Source: a bacterium (GTDB lineage: Bacteria; CAIJMQ01; JAADFP01). Taken from it: a DNA stretch of 59,390 nt. Positions 1-43,788 of the stretch are shown in pieces. Where the stretch lies: contig JALUVB010000053.1 of assembly GCA_027021085.1 (NCBI GenBank), forward strand, positions 1 through 59,390, given 5' to 3'. The translations under genes and the position numbers were made by a program. Under the pieces are notes generated by a model. It ran no database searches. It was not told the origin of the DNA and was given only the letters and a program-made list of their open reading frames with translations. The number at the start of each line of letters is the position of its first letter. Within the stretch, counting starts at the first letter, position 1.

Positions 1-166
1 TAGCCTCAAGGCGAATTTTGCCCCTTAAATTGATTAGTTTTTCCAGACGCTTACGCCTTATGAAGTCATATAGAGCCTTGTTAACTGCTTCGGTCTTCGT
101 CCTGGCCTTGGTCAGCTCAATAACTTTCTTTAAAGCCTCCTCGGATATGTTTAAAGTGGTGCGCAT
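1..166 (-). CDS. VapB/DUF2191-like ribbon-helix-helix antitoxin; its 3' end runs off the window
   Basis: Hand translation of the minus strand from ATG (164-166) gives MRTTLNISEEALKKVIELTKARTKTEAVNKALYDFIRRKRLEKLINLRGKIRLEA... It has the same N-terminal pattern as the VapB-like ORF at 8974-9177. A G6 Shine-Dalgarno-like run lies 3 nt upstream. It is absent from the ORF track because it is open at the window edge. Confidence 0.55.
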   Translation of the reverse strand, partial: MRTTLNISEEALKKVIELTKARTKTEAVNKALYDFIRRKRLEKLINLRGKIRLEA

Positions 167-198
167 TTTCCCCCCTTTTTGCATACAATTCCGATGAT

Positions 199-227
199 AT
201 TATATGATTACAGCAGGCATCTGTCAA
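199..227 (-). promoter_or_regulatory. Consensus sigma70 promoter for the antitoxin gene
   Basis: The minus strand reads TTGACA (222-227), a 17-nt spacer, then TATAAT (199-204). This sits about 33 nt upstream of the ATG at 166. Confidence 0.6.
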
Positions 228-283
228 TTCTACAAGCTGCATCAGGGAAAATCTTCTCGAAATAGGGAGATAGAGCTACACTT

Positions 284-440
284 TTCACTTAACGGCTGGC
301 GGGGGATGGGAAGTCCGAGCGAAGCGAGAATTTGGGCGGAGCGATAGCGAAGTCGGATATGCACCTGTTAAGTGAGTGCGATAGTACCGAGCACCACAAA
401 GGTGGTGCGAAGAGTCGGGGGCAAAGGGCCACTTTAATAG
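284..440 (+). repeat. GC-rich structured element, copy A (attC-like or ncRNA-like)
   Basis: It shares ordered blocks with copy B: TTTCACTTAACGGC, TTTGGGYGRAG, GCGATAG, hairpin+GAAGAGT, CCACTTTAATA. ACTTAAC (287-293) and GTTAAGT (367-373) are exact reverse complements. A hairpin forms between 391-397 and 402-408. It is a GC-rich island in AT-rich surroundings and starts about 20 nt after the stop of the 587-aa ORF. Confidence 0.6.
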
Positions 441-459
441 ATCACATACTCGTTTTGTG

Positions 460-2223
460 TCAGTAATCTAATACCCTATAAAGATCCAAACGAGAAAAAT
501 TTAATTTCGATTTTCCACTTCTTTTCAACTCATTGAGGAGAATGTTTACTATATCTTTGATATCAAATATTTCGATATTAAGGTTAGCATAATGATTTTT
601 TATCTTATCGAAAGATTTTCTAATATATTCTATTTTTTCTATGTTTTTAATAAAATTAATACAGTAAAATATCTTATGAATCCTCTTTTTGCTACATAGT
701 TCTATTTCGTTCCAAATTTTCTTCATTTCATCAGATTCTATCTTTGCGTTTTTTAGGAATATAGCACATTTGCTTTTTATGTGAACATCAATATCCGGTT
801 TATCCCTTTCAAGCGTATCGTTGAGCTTAATATCATCTTTTTTCCTTACCAATTTGATGCACTCTAATAACTCTCTAAAATTTGGAGGGGTCTTATCATC
901 AATTAAACCGCATTCAAAAAATTCCTGACATAACTCATGGATGAAATATTCGGAGAAATTACCCGCAAAAGACGAGGTCATAATTTTTAAAGTATAATCC
1001 TTCTCATCCTGCATTTCATATTTAAAAAGGCTTTCCAAGACTCGTAAAATGTCTGTAATTTGTTTAAATATGTCTCTTTCCCACTCTTGGGACAACGAAT
1101 CCCTTCTTTTAGTCGTCTCTATCTCTAATAAACAAATCTTTGCAAAGATATATAACAAAGTCCATTCCTCAGCGTAATATCTTAATAGGGATTCTGAGAG
1201 AGGCACATTTTCTTTGAAAGCCTTCATCACAAGAAAGGTTTTTATTTTATCCATTAATGACCAAGCTTTTAATATATCTTTATTGGAATAAGCTTCTTTA
1301 TAATACTTTGCAGTTAATTTATCTACTTCCTTCAATGTTACCAATAGTTTTATAGAATCTTCGTTTTGTTTCTCCTCTGGCAAGCTTCTAATGAATTTTT
1401 GAGCACTTTTTAACGATTTATCGGAATACTCTACTAATTCTTCTGTAATTTGATCTATTATTTTTTGAGCTTCTTGTTTTTTCTCATTCGATCTCTCAAA
1501 ATAGACAGATCTAACCAAAGAGTGAAGTTGTTTTTTTCTAAGTTTGTAAAGGGATTCATAGCATAAAGAAATCAGATAGGAATTTCTGGCAGGTATATTC
1601 TCTAAAATATTCAAAATTGATTTTATATGATCCTCTAAGGCTTCTATCTCACTTATATTCAGCTTCAAACTGTCTATTTTTTTCTTGTAATGGTTTTTTA
1701 CAAAAAGGGAAACAAGGATGTCAACAACATTAATGGGTTTCTCTGAACTAATCGACACGATTGATAAATATGTTTCTATAAAACTTATAAATTCACTCTC
1801 AGCAACATCGTAATCTATAAGCTCCCCTTTTTCACTAAGCTTTATCAATGCAACTTCGTACGTTCCCAACATCTTTTTAAAACTGTTACTTGGATACGGC
1901 TGAAGTTTATGTCTATCAAACAGTTTTGAGAGTGCCCTAATAATTAAACTCAATGACTTGGTTGGATCGTTAAGTAGATATTGGAACGACTTACTCCATA
2001 AATAATTGTGTTCTACATGCAGTAAGTTTATTTGGTCGTTTAGTTTTTCATATTTTTTTCTAATTTCCTCAAATTCACAATCTAATTGACGGAAAAGATC
2101 ACTCGATGGTATTTGAATCTTCTCTCGTAATATATACCTATTTATCTTCTGTTTAATACGATTGAATTCTTGCTCAATTTCAATGGGACTTTCTCTAATC
2201 CTGATTTTCATATCATTCATCAC
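460..2223 (-). CDS. Hypothetical 587-aa protein, K/E/I/L-rich and probably all-helical; no family recognised
   Basis: A long uninterrupted ORF in a very AT-rich region, where random stops would be frequent. It is co-oriented with and downstream of the R-M gene. There is no Walker motif or other clear motif. Confidence 0.7.
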   Translation of the reverse strand: MMNDMKIRIRESPIEIEQEFNRIKQKINRYILREKIQIPSSDLFRQLDCEFEEIRKKYEKLNDQINLLHVEHNYLWSKSFQYLLNDPTKSLSLIIRALSKLFDRHKLQPYPSNSFKKMLGTYEVALIKLSEKGELIDYDVAESEFISFIETYLSIVSISSEKPINVVDILVSLFVKNHYKKKIDSLKLNISEIEALEDHIKSILNILENIPARNSYLISLCYESLYKLRKKQLHSLVRSVYFERSNEKKQEAQKIIDQITEELVEYSDKSLKSAQKFIRSLPEEKQNEDSIKLLVTLKEVDKLTAKYYKEAYSNKDILKAWSLMDKIKTFLVMKAFKENVPLSESLLRYYAEEWTLLYIFAKICLLEIETTKRRDSLSQEWERDIFKQITDILRVLESLFKYEMQDEKDYTLKIMTSSFAGNFSEYFIHELCQEFFECGLIDDKTPPNFRELLECIKLVRKKDDIKLNDTLERDKPDIDVHIKSKCAIFLKNAKIESDEMKKIWNEIELCSKKRIHKIFYCINFIKNIEKIEYIRKSFDKIKNHYANLNIEIFDIKDIVNILLNELKRSGKSKLNFSRLDLYRVLDY

Positions 2224-2280
2224 TATTTAATTTCTTTTTCACATTTTTAATAATCCTTATATTTTACTTTGCCCCCGATT

Positions 2281-2425
2281 TCACTTAACGGCCAGCGGGT
2301 ATCTGAAATCGCCGAAGGCGTTTTGGGTGAGAGCTGAAAGCCCGAACCAGATACCCGCTTGTTAGCAGACCTGAAGGGCGAGCCTGCGATAGCAGGTGAA
2401 GAGTTCCGCACGCCGCCACTTAATA
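2281..2425 (+). repeat. GC-rich structured element, copy B
   Basis: Same block order as copy A. An 11-bp stem pairs GCGGGTATCTG (2295-2305) with CAGATACCCGC (2348-2358). A hairpin pairs CCTGC (2383-2387) with GCAGG (2392-2396), followed by GAAGAGT (2398-2404). It begins directly after the R-M stop codon at 2428-2430. The 62-aa track ORF at 2247-2435 is judged non-coding. Confidence 0.6.
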
Positions 2426-2427
2426 TA

Positions 2428-4758
2428 CTACTCACTATTATCTCCTCTCCTTAAAGGCAATTTTTTAATAAATTCTCTCATGTATTCCCAGTCCGGTTTT
2501 ACATTTTCATCAACAGGTAATTTTATTTTAGATTTTTCCATTCTTGCTTTAGTCCATTTTAAACCGTAATTGAATCTGTATCTTTCTTTTTCAATTATTG
2601 TTATTAAAAATAATGCTTTATAGACATCAAGATCGAAAGTCGGATACAACACATTTACATCATCTGAAGCCCAGAAAGGTCTAGACTGATAAAATGCTAT
2701 TCCCACAGAGCCATCATAATTAACAGTTATTACATTTTTCTCAAATATTGGATCACGTGCTATTTTTGCAGTTAATCCATTATTATACATGCTGGAGCCA
2801 ATAAATGGAGTATTCCCAGGATTCATGTCAAGTTTTATCAATCTTTTTCCTTTTTTGATTTCAAATAAACCACCGTCACCTCCTAATTTAAAATACTTCC
2901 AATTTTCAGTATTGAGCGGTAGGCATTTTTCATTTGAAAATTCTTTTAAGATATCGAGATTACCCTCTTTAATTTCAAAAGAAATGTAATCTAGAACTTT
3001 ATGCCTAAAATCATTACATGTTATTTTTGAATAATCTGTTTCCATGTATGGTTCAGCGCACCATATATCCTCAGCATTTACTGTTTTTAAAACACTCATC
3101 CCGGGTTTTTCTTCTCTATTTAGATACAGATTCAGAAATGTATCTTTTGTATGATTCCATCTGTTATGGTAATCTATTCTTCCTTTATTCTTTATTTTTA
3201 TAAACCCATCATCTTTAAGATATCCAAACCAAACTTTTTTATTCGGTGGATGGGGCTTATGGGCTGTTAGTACCAGTATCGCAGTAACAACCCCCACTGG
3301 GTAAAACAAATCATCTGGCATGCTTATTACTGCCTCTAAAGTATGCTTTTCTAATATTTTTTCTTTGAAATCTAGATATTCTCTTTTATCTAATACACAC
3401 CTCATTGGTACAATTGCTACACATTTCCCCCCATGTTCAAGCATATCTAAATTATTTAATACAAATTCAAATTCATTAATGTCATCTTTCTCTATTTTAT
3501 ATGGTGGGTTTAATAAACCTATATTTGGTTTAAATTTTTCTTTAATTTCATTAAAGATATTATCGAAACAACTGCCATGATATATGTTCGTTTTCCCATC
3601 CCCATGAACTATCATGTTTGTAATAGCAAGTGCATAAATATGGTCTTGATATTCTATACCTATAATCTGCTTCTCTTTTATGTGTTTTATTTTTTTACTA
3701 CTTTTTCTAGATTTTTCTATCATCTTTTTCATAGCACTGATAAGAAACCCACCTGTACCACAACAATTGTCCAAAACAACACTGTCTTTTGTAATTTCTG
3801 CCAAATCACAAAACAATTCAGTAATATGGGATGGAGTTAGGATTATACCTAATCTTTTATCACTATTTGCATATCTAAGAAACTCTATGTAAAATCTACC
3901 TAGGGCATCGTAATAATGATAGGTTTTTATAAATTTATTTAATTTATCATCAATATCATCTATAAGTTTTATCACAAACTCTTTATCTGTTGTTAGTGTT
4001 GTATGTGTTTTCATGAATGAAAACGCAATCTCCAAATTCTCAATCTTGTTAGAGGGTATATTTGATTTTTTCAATTCTCGAATAATCGTAGCAACGAGAA
4101 CATCTATAATCTCTTTAGCGGTATCATACTTTTTATAGCTTTCATGAAATGCCCTATTCCGTAAAGCAATCAAAATTCCACTAACTACCAGACTTCGTTG
4201 AGCTTCGGGTATTTTTTTAATATGAAGTGTTGTGTTCAGTTCTCCTGCAAAATCTAATAATTTTGATAAATCTTGACGGAATTTCATATCAGAATATAAA
4301 TAGGCATTAGAATAATCTTCAAAAGACAGAAGTTCATCTCCTAAAATCTTACTGGGGGTATTGGTGTCCTTAAGCCATAAATAATGGGTTATTTTAAGAT
4401 TTTCTTTCTTTTCACCGCTAACACCGATAGCCAAAACATCGTATTCTTTTGATAGATATGATGCATATAATAAAGCTCCATCAACTGCATACTCATCGTA
4501 CTTATCTCTAGATTCACTTTCGTGCTTTCTAATATCTGCTTTACACTCAATGACTATTAAAAAATCACTTCTCTTTTTTGATGTAACTATAAAATCTGGG
4601 GAACCCTTCCCTGTGCTTCTTTTAGATGCGTTTTTAAGTAATTTTTTTATTCTTGGATTGTCACTTGTTTGCTCCTCTACTATTATGTCATCATTTTCAT
4701 AGTATCCCAACTTTCTAAATTCATCCCTAACAATTTTTTCAGTTTTTCTTTCATTCAT
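2428..4758 (-). CDS. Single-chain type IIG-like restriction-modification enzyme: PD-(D/E)xK nuclease + N6-adenine methyltransferase + HsdS-like TRD
   Basis: The N-terminus has SPDFIV...LIVIECK (a PD..ExK motif). Methyltransferase motif I is DNCCGTGGF and motif IV is LLNPPYK. The C-terminal WKYFKLGG..LFEIKKGKR...TPFIGSSMYNNG resembles an HsdS target-recognition domain. A GGGAGG Shine-Dalgarno lies at 4766-4771. Confidence 0.85.
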   Translation of the reverse strand: MNERKTEKIVRDEFRKLGYYENDDIIVEEQTSDNPRIKKLLKNASKRSTGKGSPDFIVTSKKRSDFLIVIECKADIRKHESESRDKYDEYAVDGALLYASYLSKEYDVLAIGVSGEKKENLKITHYLWLKDTNTPSKILGDELLSFEDYSNAYLYSDMKFRQDLSKLLDFAGELNTTLHIKKIPEAQRSLVVSGILIALRNRAFHESYKKYDTAKEIIDVLVATIIRELKKSNIPSNKIENLEIAFSFMKTHTTLTTDKEFVIKLIDDIDDKLNKFIKTYHYYDALGRFYIEFLRYANSDKRLGIILTPSHITELFCDLAEITKDSVVLDNCCGTGGFLISAMKKMIEKSRKSSKKIKHIKEKQIIGIEYQDHIYALAITNMIVHGDGKTNIYHGSCFDNIFNEIKEKFKPNIGLLNPPYKIEKDDINEFEFVLNNLDMLEHGGKCVAIVPMRCVLDKREYLDFKEKILEKHTLEAVISMPDDLFYPVGVVTAILVLTAHKPHPPNKKVWFGYLKDDGFIKIKNKGRIDYHNRWNHTKDTFLNLYLNREEKPGMSVLKTVNAEDIWCAEPYMETDYSKITCNDFRHKVLDYISFEIKEGNLDILKEFSNEKCLPLNTENWKYFKLGGDGGLFEIKKGKRLIKLDMNPGNTPFIGSSMYNNGLTAKIARDPIFEKNVITVNYDGSVGIAFYQSRPFWASDDVNVLYPTFDLDVYKALFLITIIEKERYRFNYGLKWTKARMEKSKIKLPVDENVKPDWEYMREFIKKLPLRRGDNSE

Positions 4759-4787
4759 ATTTATTCCTCCCTAAGGCGGCGTGCAAA

Positions 4788-4880
4788 ATTTCACATAACT
4801 CGTTCATATACGCATAATTGCGTATATCCTTCCAAATCTGGGATATATGTGAAGTATTTCGTGTATACCCGCCTTTACAT
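4788..4880 (+). repeat. Shorter, degenerate copy C of the structured element
   Basis: TTTCACATAAC (compare TTTCACTTAAC), an internal 9-4-9 palindrome, GAAGTAT (4851-4857, compare GAAGAGT), a GC-rich arm, and TTTACAT (compare ACTTAAT). Similarity is patchy. Confidence 0.35.
4806..4827. promoter_or_regulatory. Perfect 9-4-9 palindrome ATATACGCA-TAAT-TGCGTATAT upstream of the R-M gene
   Basis: Exact inverted arms read from the sequence, 48-69 nt upstream of the R-M ATG (4758). It may be an operator or the stem of element copy C. Confidence 0.4.
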
Positions 4881-5005
4881 GAACTCATAGGTTTTCCTCT
4901 TTTGAAACCTGCCTGTCCGGACGGGTATTTAGCGGGCAAGTTCTGGGGAATTGTTTCAGGAAAATGTTTCATTCCAGTAGTAATATAGCAAATAAAAGCG
5001 ATAAG

Positions 5006-6115
5006 TCAAAGCGCATTCTTTAAAATCGTTTCTGTCTCATCCACCATTCTTGAAACATCGAAGTTCTCTTCTATCCATCTTTTGCCCTTTTCCCCCATTT
5101 CTCTCGCTTCTTCCGGGTGATTTAGCAGGTAGGTTATGGCTTTTGCTAAAGCCTGTGAATTTTTGGCAGGCACCAGAACTCCTGTCTCTTTATTCCTTAC
5201 TACTTCGGGAATACCGCCTACATTCGTAGCTACCACGGGAATACCCACGCCGGAAGCCTCCATAACCGAACGGGGAAGGCCTTCGGATAAGGAAGGATGG
5301 ACAAAAAGGTCAAGAATTTGCAGGATATTTCCCACCTCGGCTACTTTCCCGGTAAAGATGAAATTTCCCCTCACCCTTAACTCATTTGCCAATTCTTCCA
5401 GTTCCCTCCGCAGATTTCCCTCCCCCACCATTACAAAGCGTGTCTCCGGGAAAGCTTTCAGCACCTCCACGGAGGCCTCGATTAAATACCTATATCCTTT
5501 CAAAGCTATCAAATGCCCTACAGAGCCGATAACTTTTGCCCCTTCCGGGATACCCAGCTCTTTTTTCACTACGTCTCTTTCAGAGGAGACTTTCAGCCTG
5601 CTTAAATCCACACCGTTTAGAATAGTTACTACTCTCTCCGGGTTGATTCTCAACTCTTGCAGGATATGCCCTCGCAAAGCCTCAGAAAGGGTAATTATTT
5701 TATGGGGTATTTTTTTCAATATTCGGTTATATTTCCACAAGGGAAAATTCATTTTCCTGTTTCCCAGCTTATCCTTGTTTATATAGGCATGAATGGTACT
5801 TACAATAAGGGACGTTCCCGCCTTTTTTGCCGCAATAAGCCCGGGGACATCTCCGTCCCTATTATGGGTATGCACCACATCAAAACGCTCCTCCCTGATT
5901 AAATCAACAAGTTCCCTTATAGCTTTTCTTTTTTCTCTCAACTCCAGAGTATAAACCTCAAGCCCATTCTTCTTATAAGCTTCCGCCAGGGAACCGGGCC
6001 TGCATATAACCTTTACTTTATGGCCTCTATTTTGCAAGCCAAGGCTCAGTATCCGGGTATGCTCCTGGGAGCCTCCCCCGGTGTCTTTGGAAGAAATTAT
6101 TTGCAGGATTTTCAT
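5006..6115 (-). CDS. Glycosyltransferase family 4 (GT-B fold)
   Basis: C-terminal Glycos_transf_1 signature ...PSLSEGLPRSVMEASGVGIPVVATNVGGIPEVV... Confidence 0.85.
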   Translation of the reverse strand: MKILQIISSKDTGGGSQEHTRILSLGLQNRGHKVKVICRPGSLAEAYKKNGLEVYTLELREKRKAIRELVDLIREERFDVVHTHNRDGDVPGLIAAKKAGTSLIVSTIHAYINKDKLGNRKMNFPLWKYNRILKKIPHKIITLSEALRGHILQELRINPERVVTILNGVDLSRLKVSSERDVVKKELGIPEGAKVIGSVGHLIALKGYRYLIEASVEVLKAFPETRFVMVGEGNLRRELEELANELRVRGNFIFTGKVAEVGNILQILDLFVHPSLSEGLPRSVMEASGVGIPVVATNVGGIPEVVRNKETGVLVPAKNSQALAKAITYLLNHPEEAREMGEKGKRWIEENFDVSRMVDETETILKNAL

Positions 6116-8585: not shown

Positions 8586-8981
8586 CTATACCAACCTCAA
8601 TTGAGAATGCTGGGATATTACTTCAAAGTGTGCATCTTTATGTAAGACAGCCCAATCATTTTCTATGGCAATGGTAGCTATCAAAATATCTGTAGATGGT
8701 ATCTTTATCCCTTTTCTATATAAAGAGAATGCGAGACGAGAGGCTTTCAACCAATAAAATTCTTCTGTGGGCAAGTAATGCAGTCCTTCAAATTTTCTGA
8801 GGAGGGATTGGTACTCTTTCTCACTTTTTGTTCCCTGAAGCAATTCAAGCACAATAATACCCGTTATAGCAACCCTGTTTTTATCCAGGTATGTTATCAA
8901 TTTATTTTTGATTTCTTTGCACCCTCGCCTTGAGAAAGCGCATATCCAAGCAGAAGTATCTACAATTACTAACTCATTCAT
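8586..8981 (-). CDS. vapC: PIN-domain toxin VapC
   Basis: 131 aa. The N-terminus is LVIVDTSAWI with the conserved Asp, followed by later acidic residues (ELLQG, STDILIA). It overlaps the upstream antitoxin gene by 8 nt. Confidence 0.85.
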   Translation of the reverse strand: MNELVIVDTSAWICAFSRRGCKEIKNKLITYLDKNRVAITGIIVLELLQGTKSEKEYQSLLRKFEGLHYLPTEEFYWLKASRLAFSLYRKGIKIPSTDILIATIAIENDWAVLHKDAHFEVISQHSQLRLV

Positions 8982-9177
8982 TATTTCTTATTTTCTCAAG
9001 CTCTTTTAAGGTGAGAGGAAAGTCATAGCTCCCAATCATATTTTTTAACTCTTCTCTCCTTTTCATCTTTATATACTCTTCCATTGCTTTTGTAATGGCA
9101 CCCTTCTTTGTCTTCTCTTTACTTATCTTCAATACTTCTTTCATTAAGTTCTCATCTATTTCAATCAAAGTCCGCAT
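8974..9177 (-). CDS. vapB: VapB-type (DUF2191-like) antitoxin
   Basis: 67 aa, beginning MRTLIEIDENLMKEVLK... It lies immediately upstream of, and overlaps, the PIN toxin gene. Confidence 0.8.
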   Translation of the reverse strand: MRTLIEIDENLMKEVLKISKEKTKKGAITKAMEEYIKMKRREELKNMIGSYDFPLTLKELEKIRNNE

Positions 9178-40951: not shown

Positions 40952-42908
40952 GAATATTGTTATTGTGGAATCTCCTTCCAAGGCAAAGACAATAAGCAGG
41001 TTCCTGGGCAAAGATTTCACTGTCTGCTCCTCCCTGGGACATGTCAAAGACCTTCCCAAGGCAAAATTAGGAGTGGATATAGAGAACGGGTTCCAGCCTA
41101 CCTACAAGATAATCAGGGGAAAAAGGAAGATAATTAATTCCCTGAAAAAGCTGGCCAAGGATGCCAATGCTGTTTACCTGGCTTCTGACCCGGACCGGGA
41201 AGGGGAAGCAATTGCCTGGCATATCGCAGAGGAATTAAAGGAAGTCAATCCTACTATTAAGCGGTTAGAGTTTCACGAAATTACCCCTCCGGCCATAAAA
41301 AAATCGCTGGAAAATCCCCGGGATATTGATGCCCACCTGGTAGCTTCCCAGCAGGCAAGAAGGGTGCTTGACCGCCTGGTTGGATACCTGGTAAGCCCCC
41401 TGCTCTGGAAAAAGGTGAAGAGCGGTCTCTCTGCCGGCAGGGTGCAGACAGTAGCATTGAGATTAATCTGTGAAAGAGAGAAGGCAATTGAGGAGTTTAT
41501 CCCGGAGGAATACTGGGTAATAGAAGCAATTCTTTCTGCCAGGGAAGGGGTTTTTTCTGCTTTCCTGGTGAAAAAAGGCAGGAAGAAGATAGAAGTCAAG
41601 GAACGCGCCCAGGCGGAAAAAATAGAAAAGGAAGCAAAGGGGAGTATTTTCAAAGTAGAAAAGGCGGAAGTAAAGGAAGTAAAGCGATATCCTCCCCCTC
41701 CCCTTATCACCAGCTCCCTCCAGCAGGTAGCATTCACCCAGTACCGCTACACTCCTTCCCGCAGCATGAAGATAGCCCAGCAGTTATATGAAGGCGTGCA
41801 AATCCAGGAAGGAAGAGTGGGATTAATAACCTACATGCGCACAGACTCCTACCGTATTTCTCCCTTAGCCAGGAAAGAAGCCTATTCCTGGATTGAGAGT
41901 AATCTGGGCAGTGAGTACATCCCGGAAAAACCCATGTCCTATAAATCCCGCAGGAGTGCCCAGGAAGCACATGAAGCTATTCGGCCTACAAAGGTAAGCA
42001 GGTCTCCCGAAGAGGTAAAAGACTTCCTTACCCCGGAACAGCTGAATCTTTACACCCTTATCTGGGAACGATTCCTGGCTTCCCAGTGTGCCCCTTCTGT
42101 ATGGGAAGAAACTAAGGTGGCAATAAGCTCGGGCGAATATATATGGGAGGCAAAGGGAGAACGACTGATATTTGAGGGATTCCGCAAGATATTGCCGGTA
42201 AAGCAGGAGCTAAAGACGGTTCCGCCCTTGAAAAAAGGCGAAGAATTAACCCTGGAAGAGATAAAAATGCACCAGAAATTTACCCAGCCTCCTCCCAGGT
42301 TCACGGAAGGCTCACTGGTAAAAGAGCTGGAAAGAAAAGATATAGGGAGACCATCCACCTATGCCACAATCATCCGTATTTTAAAAAACAGGGATTACGT
42401 GAGAAACGAAAAGGGGCGCCTGCGTCCCACCCCCCTGGGAAGAGAAGTAGCCAAAATCCTGATAGATAATTTCCCCCATATATTTGAAGTTGACTTTACC
42501 GCAAGAATGGAGGACGGGCTGGACAGCATAGAAGAAGGGAAGGAGGAATACCTGAACCTGCTTACCTCCTTCTATGAAGAATTTGCCCAGCGATTGGAGG
42601 AAGCCAAAGAAAAGATGGAGAATATAAAGGATAAAATCAACGCCTTCTATTCCCGTCCCTGCCCCAATTGCGGTGCTGCCATGGTAATCAAAAAGGGCCG
42701 GTATGGCGAGTTTCTTGCCTGCCCAAACTTCCCGGAGTGCAAAACCGCGCTACCCCTGGCAAAAAAAATCGGGGTAAAGTGCCCTGAATGTGGCGGGGAA
42801 CTGGTGGAACGACGCAGTAAAAATAAAAAGAGAAAATTCTATGCCTGTATAAATTACCCGAAATGTAAATTCATAAGCTGGAAATTCCCTGATGGAAAAG
42901 GAAATTGA
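40944..42908 (+). CDS. topA: DNA topoisomerase I
   Basis: TOPRIM domain IVESPSKAKTI...DPDREGEAIAWH, active-site region ITYMRTDS, and C-terminal Cys4 zinc fingers. Confidence 0.95.
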   Translation: MAENIVIVESPSKAKTISRFLGKDFTVCSSLGHVKDLPKAKLGVDIENGFQPTYKIIRGKRKIINSLKKLAKDANAVYLASDPDREGEAIAWHIAEELKEVNPTIKRLEFHEITPPAIKKSLENPRDIDAHLVASQQARRVLDRLVGYLVSPLLWKKVKSGLSAGRVQTVALRLICEREKAIEEFIPEEYWVIEAILSAREGVFSAFLVKKGRKKIEVKERAQAEKIEKEAKGSIFKVEKAEVKEVKRYPPPPLITSSLQQVAFTQYRYTPSRSMKIAQQLYEGVQIQEGRVGLITYMRTDSYRISPLARKEAYSWIESNLGSEYIPEKPMSYKSRRSAQEAHEAIRPTKVSRSPEEVKDFLTPEQLNLYTLIWERFLASQCAPSVWEETKVAISSGEYIWEAKGERLIFEGFRKILPVKQELKTVPPLKKGEELTLEEIKMHQKFTQPPPRFTEGSLVKELERKDIGRPSTYATIIRILKNRDYVRNEKGRLRPTPLGREVAKILIDNFPHIFEVDFTARMEDGLDSIEEGKEEYLNLLTSFYEEFAQRLEEAKEKMENIKDKINAFYSRPCPNCGAAMVIKKGRYGEFLACPNFPECKTALPLAKKIGVKCPECGGELVERRSKNKKRKFYACINYPKCKFISWKFPDGKGN

Positions 42909-43788
42909 GAAATTTGTAAAATTTCTCGCTGAACAGAGAAATTACTCTCCCCACACCCTGGTTGCTTACAGGACAGACCTTTTGCAGTTTGTAAAATTCC
43001 TGCAGGAGCAGGATAAAAACCTGTCCCAGGTAGACATAAACCTGGCGCGTGAATATCTGTTTCACTTAAAGGAAAGAGGGCTTTCCCGCAACTCGCTCAT
43101 CAGGAAAGTAGCCTCCCTCAAATCTTTTTATAAATTCCTTGCTTCACGCAGTATCATTTCCCATAATCCCCTCTTACTTCTTTCCTCTCCCAAAAAGGAG
43201 AGGGAACTCCCCTATTTCCTGGGCATTGAAGAAATGGAGCACCTGCTCTCCTTGAAATTTAAGGGCACCCTGGGAAAAAGGGATAAAGCAATTCTCGAAC
43301 TACTTTACTCCACCGGGATACGGGTAAGCGAGCTGGTAGGGCTTGACCTGGACGATGTGGAATGGGGAGAAGGGTTTATCCGGGTAAAAGGAAAAGGAAG
43401 AAAGGAACGCATCATTCCTGTGGGGGAGAAGGCAATGGAGGCTCTGGATGAATACCTGCCACTGCGCGGTAAACTACTCAGCCATTTTCGCAAGGATATA
43501 TATGTAGAACCCGAGGCGCTCTTCCTGAATGCCTGGGGAGGACGGATAACCCCCCGGAGCATAGAAAGAATGGTAAACAAGTATGTACGGGAGGCAGCCA
43601 TTCGCAAGAAAGTATCACCGCACCAATTCCGTCATTCTTTTGCCACCCACCTACTGGAACGAGGAGCAGACCTGCGGGCCGTGCAGGAGCTCCTGGGACA
43701 CGCTTCCCTTTCCACCACGCAGATTTACACTCACCTGACCCCGGAAAGGCTCAAAAAAGTTTACACCCAGGCCCACCCCCGGGGGTAA
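42892..43788 (+). CDS. xerC: Tyrosine recombinase XerC/XerD
   Basis: LLYSTGIRVSEL (Arg I), HQFRHSFATHLL (H-x-x-R), LLGHASLSTTQIYTH (catalytic Tyr). The topA-xerC neighbourhood is typical of the housekeeping Xer recombinase. Confidence 0.85.
   Translation: MEKEIEKFVKFLAEQRNYSPHTLVAYRTDLLQFVKFLQEQDKNLSQVDINLAREYLFHLKERGLSRNSLIRKVASLKSFYKFLASRSIISHNPLLLLSSPKKERELPYFLGIEEMEHLLSLKFKGTLGKRDKAILELLYSTGIRVSELVGLDLDDVEWGEGFIRVKGKGRKERIIPVGEKAMEALDEYLPLRGKLLSHFRKDIYVEPEALFLNAWGGRITPRSIERMVNKYVREAAIRKKVSPHQFRHSFATHLLERGADLRAVQELLGHASLSTTQIYTHLTPERLKKVYTQAHPRG

What the first reader, a model, noticed from the sequence alone, without database searches (positions are those of the whole stretch)
415..4784. 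Each island ORF is bracketed by its own 10-12 bp inverted repeat, positioned next to the conserved CACTTAA motif
TCGGGGGCAAAG (415-426) lies just before CCACTTTAAT of copy A. It is the exact reverse complement of CTTTGCCCCCGA (2267-2278), which lies just before TTTCACTTAAC of copy B. This pair brackets the 587-aa ORF.

GCACGCCGCC (2408-2417) lies just before ACTTAATA of copy B. It is the exact reverse complement of GGCGGCGTGC (4775-4784), which lies just before TTTCACATAAC of copy C. This pair brackets the R-M gene.

The arm sequence differs between the two units, but its position relative to the conserved motifs is the same. That is covariation at the level of whole cassettes. I see two readings:
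(a) DNA. In a circularised unit, the two arms would flank one element and close it into a long stem. This is expected if units were inserted by site-specific recombination within TTCAC(T/A)TAAC.
(b) RNA. On the minus-strand mRNAs the arms sit in the 5' and 3' UTRs. For the R-M gene, the 5' arm ends 3 nt before the GGGAGG Shine-Dalgarno (4766-4771). Pairing of the 3' UTR with the 5' UTR, or with a small RNA made from the element, could then gate translation.
Basis: seen in the sequence. Interest (0 to 1): 0.8.

Follow-up and report, generated by a model that had tools for sequence, protein, structure and literature searches.

The report
Cassette-specific stems closing integron-like sites
The short inverted repeats around each island gene are real: they are the two halves of an extra stem that would close the gene cassette's recombination hairpin once the cassette is cut out as a circle, a feature shared by a family of integron-like cassettes found in hot-vent archaea and bacteria.

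Summary
Both arm pairs are exact and sit in a fixed register. The 150-nt "copies" are integron-type attC sites on the minus (coding) strand: R''(TTC-NNN-TAAC), AA, L''(GCGGGTATCTGG), two covarying hairpins, L', R'(G|TTA-NNN-GAAAT).

The same family occurs in 39 loci from MAGs labelled as many archaeal and bacterial phyla. Of 26 cassettes bounded by two such sites, 9 carry exact 10-16 nt arms in the same register as the window. Non-cognate controls rarely reach 10 and never 12. An orthologous cassette has covaried arms.

Each cassette's 5' end also complements its own R'', which places the crossover at G|TT. The arms therefore travel with the cassette and pair only in the excised circle. There they clamp the attC hairpin, with a modelled gain of 8-22 kcal/mol in 11 of 12 cassettes. 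The mRNA reading (b) is not supported.

Class 1 cassettes show only 7-12 bp of such pairing. IntI-like recombinases lacking the IntI-specific domain lie beside related arrays. None is in this window.

Verdict: new variant of a known kind.

The parts
1..166 (-). 5' part of vapB antitoxin gene, cut by the window start. It is the first gene of the next cassette, which runs from 292 leftward. Its own promoter lies at 227->199.
   Evidence: Pfam VapB_antitoxin, E 6.6e-13. L001 shows vapB continuing beyond the window start and followed by a further, unannotated gene. A 12/12 sigma-70 consensus lies at 227->199.
280..377 (-). Element A core: an attC-like site. On the minus strand, R'' TCACTTAAC is at 375-367 and R' GTTAAGTGAAA is at 293-283. 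The predicted crossover is G(293)|TT. The L boxes pair poorly, so the site looks chimeric.
   Evidence: Covariance model R1 hit, 59.1 bits, E 2e-13. Alignment A2. L001 is identical only down to 357, then diverges.
378..414 (-). Inserted module between arm' and R'' of element A: CTCTTCG, then hairpin GCACCAC-CTTT-GTGGTGC, then CTCGG, then a small second hairpin.
   Evidence: The same module (CTCTYCG plus two small hairpins) lies 25-55 nt upstream of 19 of 90 family members. It folds as two hairpins.
415..426 (.). 3' arm (arm') of the ORF1 cassette. It pairs with 2267-2278.
   Evidence: Exact 12-nt reverse complement. Register is 38 nt before the next site, as in other cassettes.
460..2220 (-). 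ORF1, 586 aa, no known family. Its homologues elsewhere sit beside GmrSD, Piwi-domain and OLD/TOPRIM-family genes.
   Evidence: No Pfam hit. 57 homologues. Gene contexts. PADLOC gives only a marginal LeoA hit.
2267..2278 (.). 5' arm of the ORF1 cassette, directly after GTTAAGTGAAA of element B.
2276..2371 (-). Element B core: an attC-like site. R'' is CTGCTAAC. The L stem GCGGGTATCTG / CAGATACCCGC is perfect. There are two inner hairpins. R' is GTTAAGTGAAAT. The predicted crossover is G(2289)|TT.
   Evidence: R1 hit, 85.6 bits, E 6e-21. Fold.
2372..2407 (-). Module of element B: CTCTTC, then hairpin CCTGC-TATC-GCAGG, then CTCG and following bases.
   Evidence: Alignment with A and relatives.
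2408..2417 (.). 3' arm (arm') of the ORF2 cassette. It pairs with 4775-4784. The pairing extends to 2404-2417 against 4775-4788 at 12 of 14 positions.
2428..4758 (-). ORF2, 776 aa: a type IIG restriction-modification enzyme (nuclease, N6 methyltransferase and specificity domains fused).
   Evidence: Pfam N6_Mtase plus Methylase_S. PADLOC REase_MTase_IIG, E 2.6e-161.
4775..4784 (.). 5' arm of the ORF2 cassette, 3 nt upstream of the Shine-Dalgarno on the minus strand.
4789..4887 (+). Site C. It is a degenerate family member in the opposite orientation. Its R'' TTTCACATAAC, read on the minus strand, supplies the R' core G(4799)|TTATGTGAAAT that opens the array. It lacks the L-box consensus.
   Evidence: Weak R1 hit on the + strand, 12.4 bits, E 0.005 in a 501-nt search. 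Hairpin TTCACATA/TATGTGAA.

Best explanation
The low-GC island is an array of integron-type gene cassettes read on the minus strand. The order is: site C, type IIG R-M cassette (4798->2289), attC B, ORF1 cassette (2288->293), attC A, then a vapB-containing cassette.

Each 150-nt element is an attC-like recombination site. A tyrosine recombinase would cut it at G|TT of the R' core. Each cassette therefore starts with TTA-NNN-GAAA(T)-arm. It ends with arm', an optional two-hairpin module, R'', L'', the variable hairpins, L' and G.

In the array the two arms lie about 2 kb apart, on either side of the ORF. When the cassette is excised as a circle they are brought together around its single attC. 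There they pair and add a GC-rich 10-16 bp outer stem below the 9-10 bp R-box stem. The arm is thus a cassette-specific clamp. It makes the folded (bottom-strand) attC much more stable in the free circle than in the array.

I infer two consequences. First, the clamp favours folding and capture of the excised cassette. Second, it compensates for high temperature in the thermophilic hosts where this family is found.

Shown: the anatomy, its register, its generality, covariation, ownership of the half-sites, the in-silico energy gain, and linkage of related arrays to an IntI-like recombinase.

Inferred: excision as a circle, pairing in vivo, the strand used, and the thermostability and directionality role.
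For: 1. Exact arms in a fixed register.

2. The family.
- The pattern AACAAGCGGGTAT..ATACCCGC..GTTA hit 39 loci in MAGs labelled as many archaeal and bacterial lineages.
- Alignment A2 and model R1 found 68 coding-strand copies, many as arrays of 2-4 between co-oriented ORFs.

3. Arms elsewhere.
- 9 of 26 two-site-bounded cassettes carry exact 10-16 nt arms. The 5' arm starts 3-4 nt before the end of the site model. Arm' ends 37-41 nt (or 17 or 28 nt) before the next site.
- Short-form cassettes carry 5-7 nt arms that abut R''.
- Non-cognate controls reach at most 11 nt, and 10 or more in 1.4% of pairs.
- By my reading, all but one of the module-bearing sites that have an upstream partner site show arms.

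4. Half-site ownership. The variable R' bases pair with the next site's R'' in 20, 17, 21 and 24 of 29 cassettes. They pair with the same site's R'' in 9, 10, 15 and 16 of 29. The crossover is therefore 5' of these bases, at G|TT.

5. Covariation. The ORF1 orthologue in L017 (75% amino-acid identity) has arms TCAGGAGGAAAAGGG / CCCTTTGCCTCTCTGA. The window has TCGGGGGCAAAG / CTTTGCCCCCGA. Changes occur on both sides and pairing is kept.

6. Folding with DNA parameters.
- Modelled circle junctions close on the arms.
- Bottom-strand energy improves by 8-22 kcal/mol over the array context in 11 of 12 cassettes.
- The bottom strand is more stable than the top in all 12.

7. Composition. Arms average 61% GC, inside ORFs of 30-31% GC.

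8. Recombinase linkage.
- IntI1-like genes lie upstream and co-oriented in L019, L021, L037 and L052.
- Among 80 metagenome loci carrying this recombinase, 16 hold family sites. All 29 hits are on the recombinase strand.

9. Arms around the element itself (the 'closed' arrangement) are rare: one 9-nt case in 90 elements.
Against: - No integrase lies beside this array within the 59 kb window. The only tyrosine recombinase here is a housekeeping XerC-type gene at 42892-43788.
- The linked recombinases lack the IntI-specific domain and score below the integron-integrase cut-off.
- The L stem has no extrahelical bases, so canonical single-strand attC recognition is not assured.
- The R-M cassette's own R' (TTATGTG) does not match its R'' (TGCTAAC), although its arms do pair.
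- The variant contig L001 switches from 100% identity to divergence in the middle of element A (window 357/356), not at G|TT. At least some exchanges are therefore homologous or internal to the site.
- Similar arm sequences recur next to different ORFs, for example CCTTTTGCTCACGA in L022 and L041. Arms are partly inherited with the site.
- No circle junction was observed.
- Arms of 10 nt or more were absent from the 14 cassettes in the recombinase-linked metagenome loci, which are mostly short-form.
Confidence: 0.7

Rival explanations
1. RNA reading. On the minus-strand mRNA the arms sit in the 5' and 3' UTRs. They pair with each other, or with an element-derived sRNA, to gate translation or stabilise the transcript, as in S. 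aureus icaR.
For: - Perfect arms can pair in RNA as well as in DNA.
- The R-M cassette's 5' arm ends 3 nt from its Shine-Dalgarno.
- A promoter-like site at 5009->4982 could place that arm in a transcript.
- ORFs read across many of the sites. The AAC-to-GTT distance is biased by reading frame, 52:22:11. Translation through the sites may therefore matter.
Against: - The arm position is fixed relative to the recombination site and variable relative to start and stop codons. In the window the 5' arm lies 16 and 46 nt from the starts, and arm' lies 10 and 33 nt from the stops.
- In short-form cassettes the arm continues the R-box helix directly.
- Internal mismatches are A.C on the coding strand 11 times and G.U-compatible 3 times.
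- The bottom strand folds better in all 12 modelled junctions.
- Rfam finds nothing.
- The same arm families occur beside unrelated genes.
- The overall promoter-like count equals the shuffled expectation.
Confidence: 0.1
2. Historical relic. Each arm pair is the split stem of an ancestral closed element, or of a terminator hairpin, into whose loop an ORF was placed. The complementarity is inherited and has no present function.
For: - Arm sequences fall into related families that end in CGA, CAA or GAA. These are shared by cassettes with different ORFs.
- One 'closed' copy exists, in L029, with 9 nt around a single element.
Against: - Arms are perfect over 10-16 nt in nine cassettes although their sequences differ widely.
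- Orthologous cassettes at 75% protein identity changed both arms together.
- Arms are GC-rich within AT-rich cassettes.
- An unselected relic should accumulate one-sided changes.
Confidence: 0.12
3. Invertible or transposable units. The arms are terminal inverted repeats at which each ORF is inverted or transposed on its own.
For: Inverted repeats flanking a gene are the hallmark of invertons and of IS or MITE ends.
Against: - Every cassette has a different arm sequence, so no single enzyme could recognise them.
- The ORFs are an R-M enzyme and an unknown protein, not transposases or invertases.
- No target-site duplications are seen.
- All cassettes in all arrays are in one orientation relative to the sites.
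Confidence: 0.03
4. Chance complementarity in GC-rich patches.
For: The arms are short, and the elements are 55% GC.
Against: Non-cognate and same-element controls rarely reach 10 nt and never 12. The identical register recurs in seven independent cassettes elsewhere.
Confidence: 0.01

Closest known systems
Integron gene cassettes and attC (59-be) sites, including chromosomal arrays, CALINs and archaeal integrons (Ghaly et al. 2022, PMC9668308)
   Same: - Co-oriented ORFs are each followed by an imperfect palindrome with R''(RYYYAAC), L'', a variable part, L' and R'(GTTRRRY).
- The first bases of each cassette complement its own R'', as expected for a crossover at G|TT.
- The bottom strand is the better folder.
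- Toxin-antitoxin and defence genes are carried as cargo.
- Arrays often lack a neighbouring integrase.
- Near-identical sites are shared between MAGs labelled as Archaea and Bacteria (PMC9668308 reports cross-domain attC identity).
   Different: - Pairing between cassette ends is much longer. It is 15-18 bp contiguous, or 9-10 bp plus a separate 10-16 bp arm. Six class 1 cassettes tested here showed 7-12 bp.
- In about a fifth of sites, a conserved 27-41 nt two-hairpin module is inserted between the outer arm and R''.
- The L stem is a perfect 11-12 bp helix without extrahelical bases.
- The central spacer is asymmetric (2 nt against 5 nt).
- The site sequence, not only its structure, is conserved across phyla.
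- The linked recombinase is co-oriented with the cassettes and lacks the IntI additional domain.
Xer/dif recombination, including archaeal XerA and pdif modules of Acinetobacter plasmids
   Same: The linked recombinases score above cut-off for NCBIfam NF040815 ('XerA / integron integrase') and lack the IntI insertion, like Xer proteins. In the folded site, two recombinase-arm-like helices (R and L) flank a short spacer.
   Different: dif and pdif sites are 28-bp double-stranded sites without hairpin structure or variable inner hairpins. pdif modules are flanked by sites in inverted orientation, whereas here all sites are direct. Neither has cassette-specific arms.
5'-3' UTR pairing that represses translation (S. 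aureus icaR mRNA; from my own knowledge, not tested here)
   Same: Complementary segments lie at the two ends of a transcription unit, one of them next to the Shine-Dalgarno.
   Different: In icaR the 3' UTR pairs with the Shine-Dalgarno itself. Here the arm lies beside the Shine-Dalgarno, not on it. Its position follows the recombination site, and the strand test favours the non-coding DNA strand.

Membership tests
Integron cassette array (attC sites) | Imperfect palindromic site with inverse core RYYYAAC (R'') and core GTTRRRY (R') at its ends | tested here: met
   A has ACTTAAC and GTTAAGT. B has (T)GCTAAC and GTTAAGT. Across the family, TAAC and GTTA are 90% or more conserved in A2, and GTT is invariant.
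Integron cassette array (attC sites) | Inner L''/L' boxes, a variable terminal structure and an unpaired central spacer | tested here: met
   The L stem is GCGGGTATCTGG / (T)TCAGATACCCGC, with covariation CT/AG to GC/GC. There are two variable hairpins. The spacer is AA against NNNNC.
Integron cassette array (attC sites) | Extrahelical bases in the L stem of the folded bottom strand, which govern strand choice and IntI I2 binding | tested here: not met
   The L stem is a continuous 11-12 bp helix in the alignment and in all folds. The only asymmetries are the 2/5-nt spacer and a recurrent A.C (G.T on the bottom strand) at position 11.
Integron cassette array (attC sites) | The cassette's first bases (TTRRRY) are complementary to its own R'', which indicates a crossover at G|TT | tested here: met
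   The variable R' positions pair with the next site's R'' in 17-24 of 29 cassettes. They pair with the same site's R'' in 9-16 of 29. The ORF1 cassette meets this. The R-M cassette does not.
Integron cassette array (attC sites) | Co-oriented ORFs, each followed by a site, with sites less than 4 kb apart | tested here: met
   The window has three sites 2-2.5 kb apart with ORFs on one strand. Related loci carry 2-5 sites.
Complete integron | Adjacent intI gene encoding a tyrosine recombinase with the IntI-specific additional domain (I2 helix) | tested here: not met
   No such gene lies next to the window's array. In related loci the adjacent recombinase aligns to IntI1 at 34% identity. The alignment carries 46 gap positions, nearly all within IntI1 residues 191-255. 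TIGR02249 scores 212-230 bits, below the cut-off of 265. NF040815 scores 238-239 bits, above its cut-off of 220.
Complete integron | attI site and Pc promoter next to a divergently transcribed intI | tested here: not met
   The array starts at degenerate site C, downstream of a glycosyltransferase gene. In related loci the recombinase is co-oriented with the cassettes, and in four loci it is itself preceded by a family site.
Complete integron | Demonstrated excision and insertion of cassettes by the integrase | not testable with these tools
   Evidence is indirect only: half-site ownership and a mosaic between the window and L001.
Structured regulatory RNA (any Rfam family) | Match to a curated covariance model | tested here: not met
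   No hit in 1-5200 even at E up to 5. Only tRNAs were found in the window at gathering thresholds.

The most novel reading that the evidence does not exclude
This may be a distinct, cross-domain, thermophile-associated relative of integrons. A Xer/IntI-like recombinase without the I2 domain would act on sequence-conserved attC-like sites that lack extrahelical bases. Each cassette would carry a private GC-rich outer stem, sometimes separated from the R box by a conserved two-hairpin module. That stem forms only in the excised circle. The clamp would then act as a topological switch, marking the free circle rather than the array copy as the preferred folded substrate. Because arm families are shared by cassettes with unrelated ORFs, new cassettes could arise by placing a gene between the arms of an existing ORF-less unit. 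That would be a concrete route to the unsolved origin of gene cassettes.
Probability: 0.3. Interest if true: 0.75.

Novelty: new variant of a known kind. Interest (0 to 1): 0.6.

Why it matters
Integron cassettes are a major route of gene exchange, yet two questions remain open. How is the folded attC made available in a free cassette? How do new cassettes arise?

This family adds a cassette-owned, covarying outer stem that can only form after circularisation. The result is a directly testable structural difference between the excised and integrated states.

The family is spread across MAGs labelled as many archaeal and bacterial phyla from hot, anoxic habitats. It carries defence genes, including a type IIG R-M enzyme here, and toxin-antitoxin modules. 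It is linked to recombinases that lack the domain thought necessary for single-strand attC recognition.

If confirmed, it would broaden what counts as an integron-like system. It would also help annotate cassette boundaries that standard tools may miss.

Tried and rejected
- **Rfam.** Nothing at gathering thresholds (whole window) or at E up to 5 (1-5200), apart from tRNAs.
- **First genome-collection pattern.** AGTGG..CTCTTC..GCCGTTAAGTGAAA was built on motifs shared by A and B. It found nothing, because AGTGG and GCCGTTAAGTGAAA are local features.
- **Contexts of more distant ORF1 homologues** (L004-L010). These are archaeal or other islands without this site family. The only exception is a weak, degenerate hit upstream of the homologue in L007. 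ORF1 is therefore not tied to the element.
- **'Closed' arrangement.** Arms complementary around a single element would suggest a MITE inserted into a hairpin. Only one 9-nt case was found in 90 elements.
- **Small-protein hypothesis.**
  - A 62-aa ORF (2247-2435) spans element B, and similar ORFs span relatives.
  - Read-through ORFs are about as common at short-form as at long-form sites (39 of 57 against 17 of 21), because the sites are stop-poor in all frames.
  - The peptides are conserved only where the DNA is conserved.
  - I did not adopt this hypothesis. The frame bias is recorded as a lead.
- **Promoter and terminator scan.** Counts equal the shuffled expectation. Only the vapB promoter is convincing.
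- **Host identification.** TopA has no close named relative. It is 50% identical or less to any named protein, the top hits being unnamed. An exact-sequence cluster look-up gave no names.
- **Logan contigs L002 and L003.** They break inside element B and exactly at the arm (4784). I read this as assembly-graph branching at repeated sites, not as evidence for circles.

Full report
**1. The observation**

- TCGGGGGCAAAG (415-426) and CTTTGCCCCCGA (2267-2278) are exact reverse complements.
- GCACGCCGCC (2408-2417) and GGCGGCGTGC (4775-4784) are exact reverse complements.
- Neither pair extends as an exact match. The second extends to 12 of 14 positions.

The arms bracket two minus-strand genes.
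- ORF1 (460-2220) is 586 aa and has no known family.
- ORF2 (2428-4758) is 776 aa and is a type IIG restriction-modification enzyme.

These genes are 30-31% GC. The rest of the window is about 46% GC, and the elements between the genes are 55% GC.

**2. What the "copies" are**

Read on the minus strand, which is the coding strand, elements B and A have the anatomy of integron attC sites.
- An inverse core that ends in TAAC.
- Two A residues.
- A strong left box, GCGGGTATCTGG in B.
- Two small variable hairpins around CCCAAA(T/A).
- The right box, CAGATACCCGC.
- A 5-nt spacer.
- The core GTTAAGTGAAAT.

Rfam has nothing for them.

A first pattern built on A/B-specific motifs found nothing in the genome collection. 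A pattern built on the L boxes found 39 loci. These come from MAGs with the following labels:
- Archaea: Thermoplasmata, DHVE2, Archaeoglobus/Geoglobus, ANME-1, Methanoperedens, Thermococci, Heimdallarchaeota and others.
- Bacteria: WOR-3, Deferribacteres, Nitrospirae, Acidobacteria, Bacteroidetes and Desulfurellales.

The alignment of 47 copies is highly conserved in the boxes and covaries in the L stem. A covariance model built from it found 68 coding-strand copies in the loci held. Many form arrays of two to four sites between co-oriented ORFs.

MAG labels on short contigs that carry mobile DNA should be read with caution.

**3. The arms are a family rule**

For 26 cassettes bounded by two sites, I compared the 43 nt after the upstream site with the 110 nt before the downstream site.
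- Nine cassettes, including the two in the window, have exact inverted repeats of 10-16 nt.
- In all nine the 5' arm begins 3-4 nt before the end of the site model, right after GAAA(T).
- Arm' ends 37-41 nt before the next site in seven cases, and 17 and 28 nt before it in the other two.
- The gap holds a conserved module, CTCTYCG plus two small hairpins. This module lies upstream of 19 of 90 sites.
- In one case a different small hairpin fills the gap.
- Cassettes without the module have shorter arms (5-7 nt) that abut R'' and continue the R-box helix to 15-18 bp.

Two controls bound the chance expectation.
- 626 non-cognate flank pairs gave mostly 5-7 nt. Nine pairs reached 10 or more, and none reached 12.
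- The two flanks of the same element, across 90 elements, gave at most 9 nt.

The arms therefore bracket ORFs, not elements.

The ORF1 orthologue in L017 (75% amino-acid identity) has arms TCAGGAGGAAAAGGG / CCCTTTGCCTCTCTGA. The window has TCGGGGGCAAAG / CTTTGCCCCCGA. Changes on both sides keep most of the pairing.

**4. Where the cassette boundary lies**

In most cassettes the bases after G of the upstream R' (TTA-NNN-GAA) are complementary to the R'' of the downstream site. That is the cassette's own site.
- At the variable positions the own-site count is 20, 17, 21 and 24 of 29.
- The same-site count is 9, 10, 15 and 16 of 29.

This is the classical signature of a crossover at G|TT. In window coordinates the predicted units are:
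- 4798->2289, the R-M cassette.
- 2288->293, the ORF1 cassette.
- 292 leftward, a cassette beginning with vapB. vapB carries its own perfect sigma-70 promoter.

Any crossover inside the site keeps both arms with the ORF. This explains why they remain a matched pair whatever the neighbouring cassette is.

**5. What the arms would do**

I joined each cassette's 3' end to its own 5' end, which models the excised circle, and folded it with DNA parameters. The structure was the same in nearly every case.
- An outer stem made of the arms.
- One unpaired base.
- The 9-10 bp R stem.
- The asymmetric spacer.
- The L stem and two inner hairpins.
- The module's two small hairpins on one side only.

Compared with the same site in its array context:
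- The bottom strand gains 8-22 kcal/mol in 11 of 12 cassettes. The window values are 8.1 for ORF1 and 11.5 for the R-M cassette.
- The bottom strand is more stable than the top in all 12.
- Inside cognate helices, mismatches are A.C on the coding strand (G.T on the bottom strand) 11 times and G.T on the coding strand 3 times. Much of this comes from one recurrent position, so the evidence is modest.

Arms average 61% GC.

I conclude that the arms are a cassette-owned clamp that forms only in the circle. Its role in stabilising folding at high temperature, and in favouring capture over re-excision, is inference.

**6. The enzyme**

The window has no integrase next to the array. Its only tyrosine recombinase is a XerC-type gene 38 kb away.

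In four of the 39 genome loci an IntI1-like gene lies upstream of the sites on the same strand. My recalled IntI1 query proved 100% identical to annotated IntI1. These proteins have the following properties:
- They score above cut-off for NCBIfam 'XerA / integron integrase'.
- They score below cut-off for TIGR02249.
- They lack about 45 residues where IntI1 has its additional domain.
- They carry an extra N-terminal domain.

A metagenome scan with their alignment returned 80 loci. Sixteen of them hold family sites, and all 29 hits are on the recombinase strand. In three of those loci, as in genome locus L037, a site also sits just upstream of the recombinase gene.

The system is therefore integron-like but fails two strict membership criteria: the IntI-specific domain and the extrahelical bases.

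**7. Comparison with classical cassettes**

Six class 1 cassettes were taken from four plasmids: arr-3, dfrA27, dfrA1, an unnamed ORF, aac(6')-Ib and aadA22. Analysed the same way, they show 7-12 bp of end complementarity and no split arm. Some extension beyond the 7-bp core is thus not unprecedented. The length, the split by a conserved module and the regular register are new to me. I found no description of them in the papers I searched.

**8. Points that do not fit neatly**

- The R-M cassette's R' (TTATGTG) matches site C's own inverse core rather than the cassette's R''.
- Site C is a degenerate family member in inverted orientation.
- Contig L001 is identical to the window from 4946 down to 357. 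It then diverges inside element A. The window's A has poorly pairing L boxes, as if chimeric. Exchanges inside the sites therefore also occur, probably by homologous recombination between these repeats.
- Arm sequences form families shared by cassettes with different ORFs.

**9. The RNA reading**

Nothing supports it beyond the fact that perfect arms could also pair in RNA.
- The register follows the site, not the codons.
- The strand tests favour the non-coding strand.
- No RNA family matches.

I did see two things that might bear on translation.
- ORFs read through many sites, including a 62-aa ORF at 2247-2435.
- The AAC-to-GTT distance avoids the one frame class that has no read-through frame (52:22:11).

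Such ORFs are equally common at short-form sites, and the sequences are stop-poor in all frames. I record this as a lead on translation through attC sites, not as support for arm pairing in mRNA.

**10. Verdict**

Interpretation (a) is supported and (b) is not. This is a new variant of a known kind: integron-type cassettes with cassette-specific outer stems, belonging to a cross-domain family linked to an atypical recombinase.

Noticed in passing
window 280-377 compared with L001 4570-4666: Contig L001 (ENA ERZ27262676) is 100% identical to the window from 4946 down to 357. From 356 leftward it diverges by roughly 10-20%, through the rest of element A and into vapB. L001's version of A has better-matching L boxes (CAGGT..AT / ATACCTG). 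The window's A looks chimeric. This is a recombination breakpoint inside the site, not at G|TT.
   Followed up: partly
window 4789-4887 (+) and 4880-4960: Site C scores weakly as a family member on the opposite strand: TTTCACATAAC, then TTCCAAATC, then GTATACCCGCC. Further right, AAATACCCG (minus strand) pairs with that L-box-like segment (GGCGGGTATAC on the minus strand) in everted order. These look like relics of decayed or inverted sites at the array's chromosomal edge, downstream of the glycosyltransferase gene.
   Followed up: partly
window 2247-2435 (-), and family members in L020, L031, L040, L049, L055: A 62-aa GTG-start ORF with a Shine-Dalgarno overlaps the end of the R-M gene. It reads through all of element B and the 5' arm, and stops 27 nt before ORF1. 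Similar read-through ORFs cover many sites. The AAC-to-GTT distance is 2, 0 or 1 mod 3 in 52, 22 and 11 of 85 sites. The rare class is the only one with no frame free of stops at both R boxes. This may reflect translation through attC hairpins, but the sites are not phylogenetically independent.
   Followed up: partly
L061 6061-6160, L067 3719-3818, L069 1361-1459, L037 2382-2472: The atypical recombinase gene is itself preceded, within about 50-400 nt, by a family site with an AT-rich R' (GTTAAATAAAT, GTTATTGAATT, GTTTAATAAAA). It is also followed by further sites, as if it sat in a cassette-like position. In L061 the same promoter-like sequence follows two different sites.
   Followed up: no
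L011-L016 (contexts of ORF1 homologue P0007): An identical two-gene module (284 aa plus 588 aa) sits after what looks like a hisF gene end (my reading, not tested). In different samples it is followed by different genes: GmrSD, a Piwi-domain protein, or an OLD/TOPRIM ATPase. hsdS-like fragments lie at the junctions. This appears to be a variable defence hot spot, and ORF1 is probably a defence gene of unknown type. Family attC-like sites flank the GmrSD gene (L012 4345-4437 and 6203-6290).
   Followed up: partly
window 431-440 and 2417-2425: CCACTTTAAT and CACTTAATA lie between each stop codon and arm'. On the minus strand they read ATTAAAGTGG and TATTAAGTG. They resemble the R' core GTTAAGTG but are absent at this position in related cassettes. 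They may be vestiges of an older cassette boundary.
   Followed up: no
window 199-227 (-): A perfect sigma-70 consensus (TTGACA, 17 nt, TATAAT) lies upstream of vapB, so the toxin-antitoxin cassette has its own promoter. A second PIN-domain gene, with a small upstream ORF, sits at 8586-9177 inside the glycosyltransferase cluster.
   Followed up: no
L002 and L003 (Logan, SRR8439019): Short contigs carrying single cassettes end inside element B, in k-mers shared with other family members. One starts exactly at the arm (window 4784). This is consistent with assembly-graph branching at repeated sites and possibly with alternative cassette contexts in that sample.
   Followed up: no
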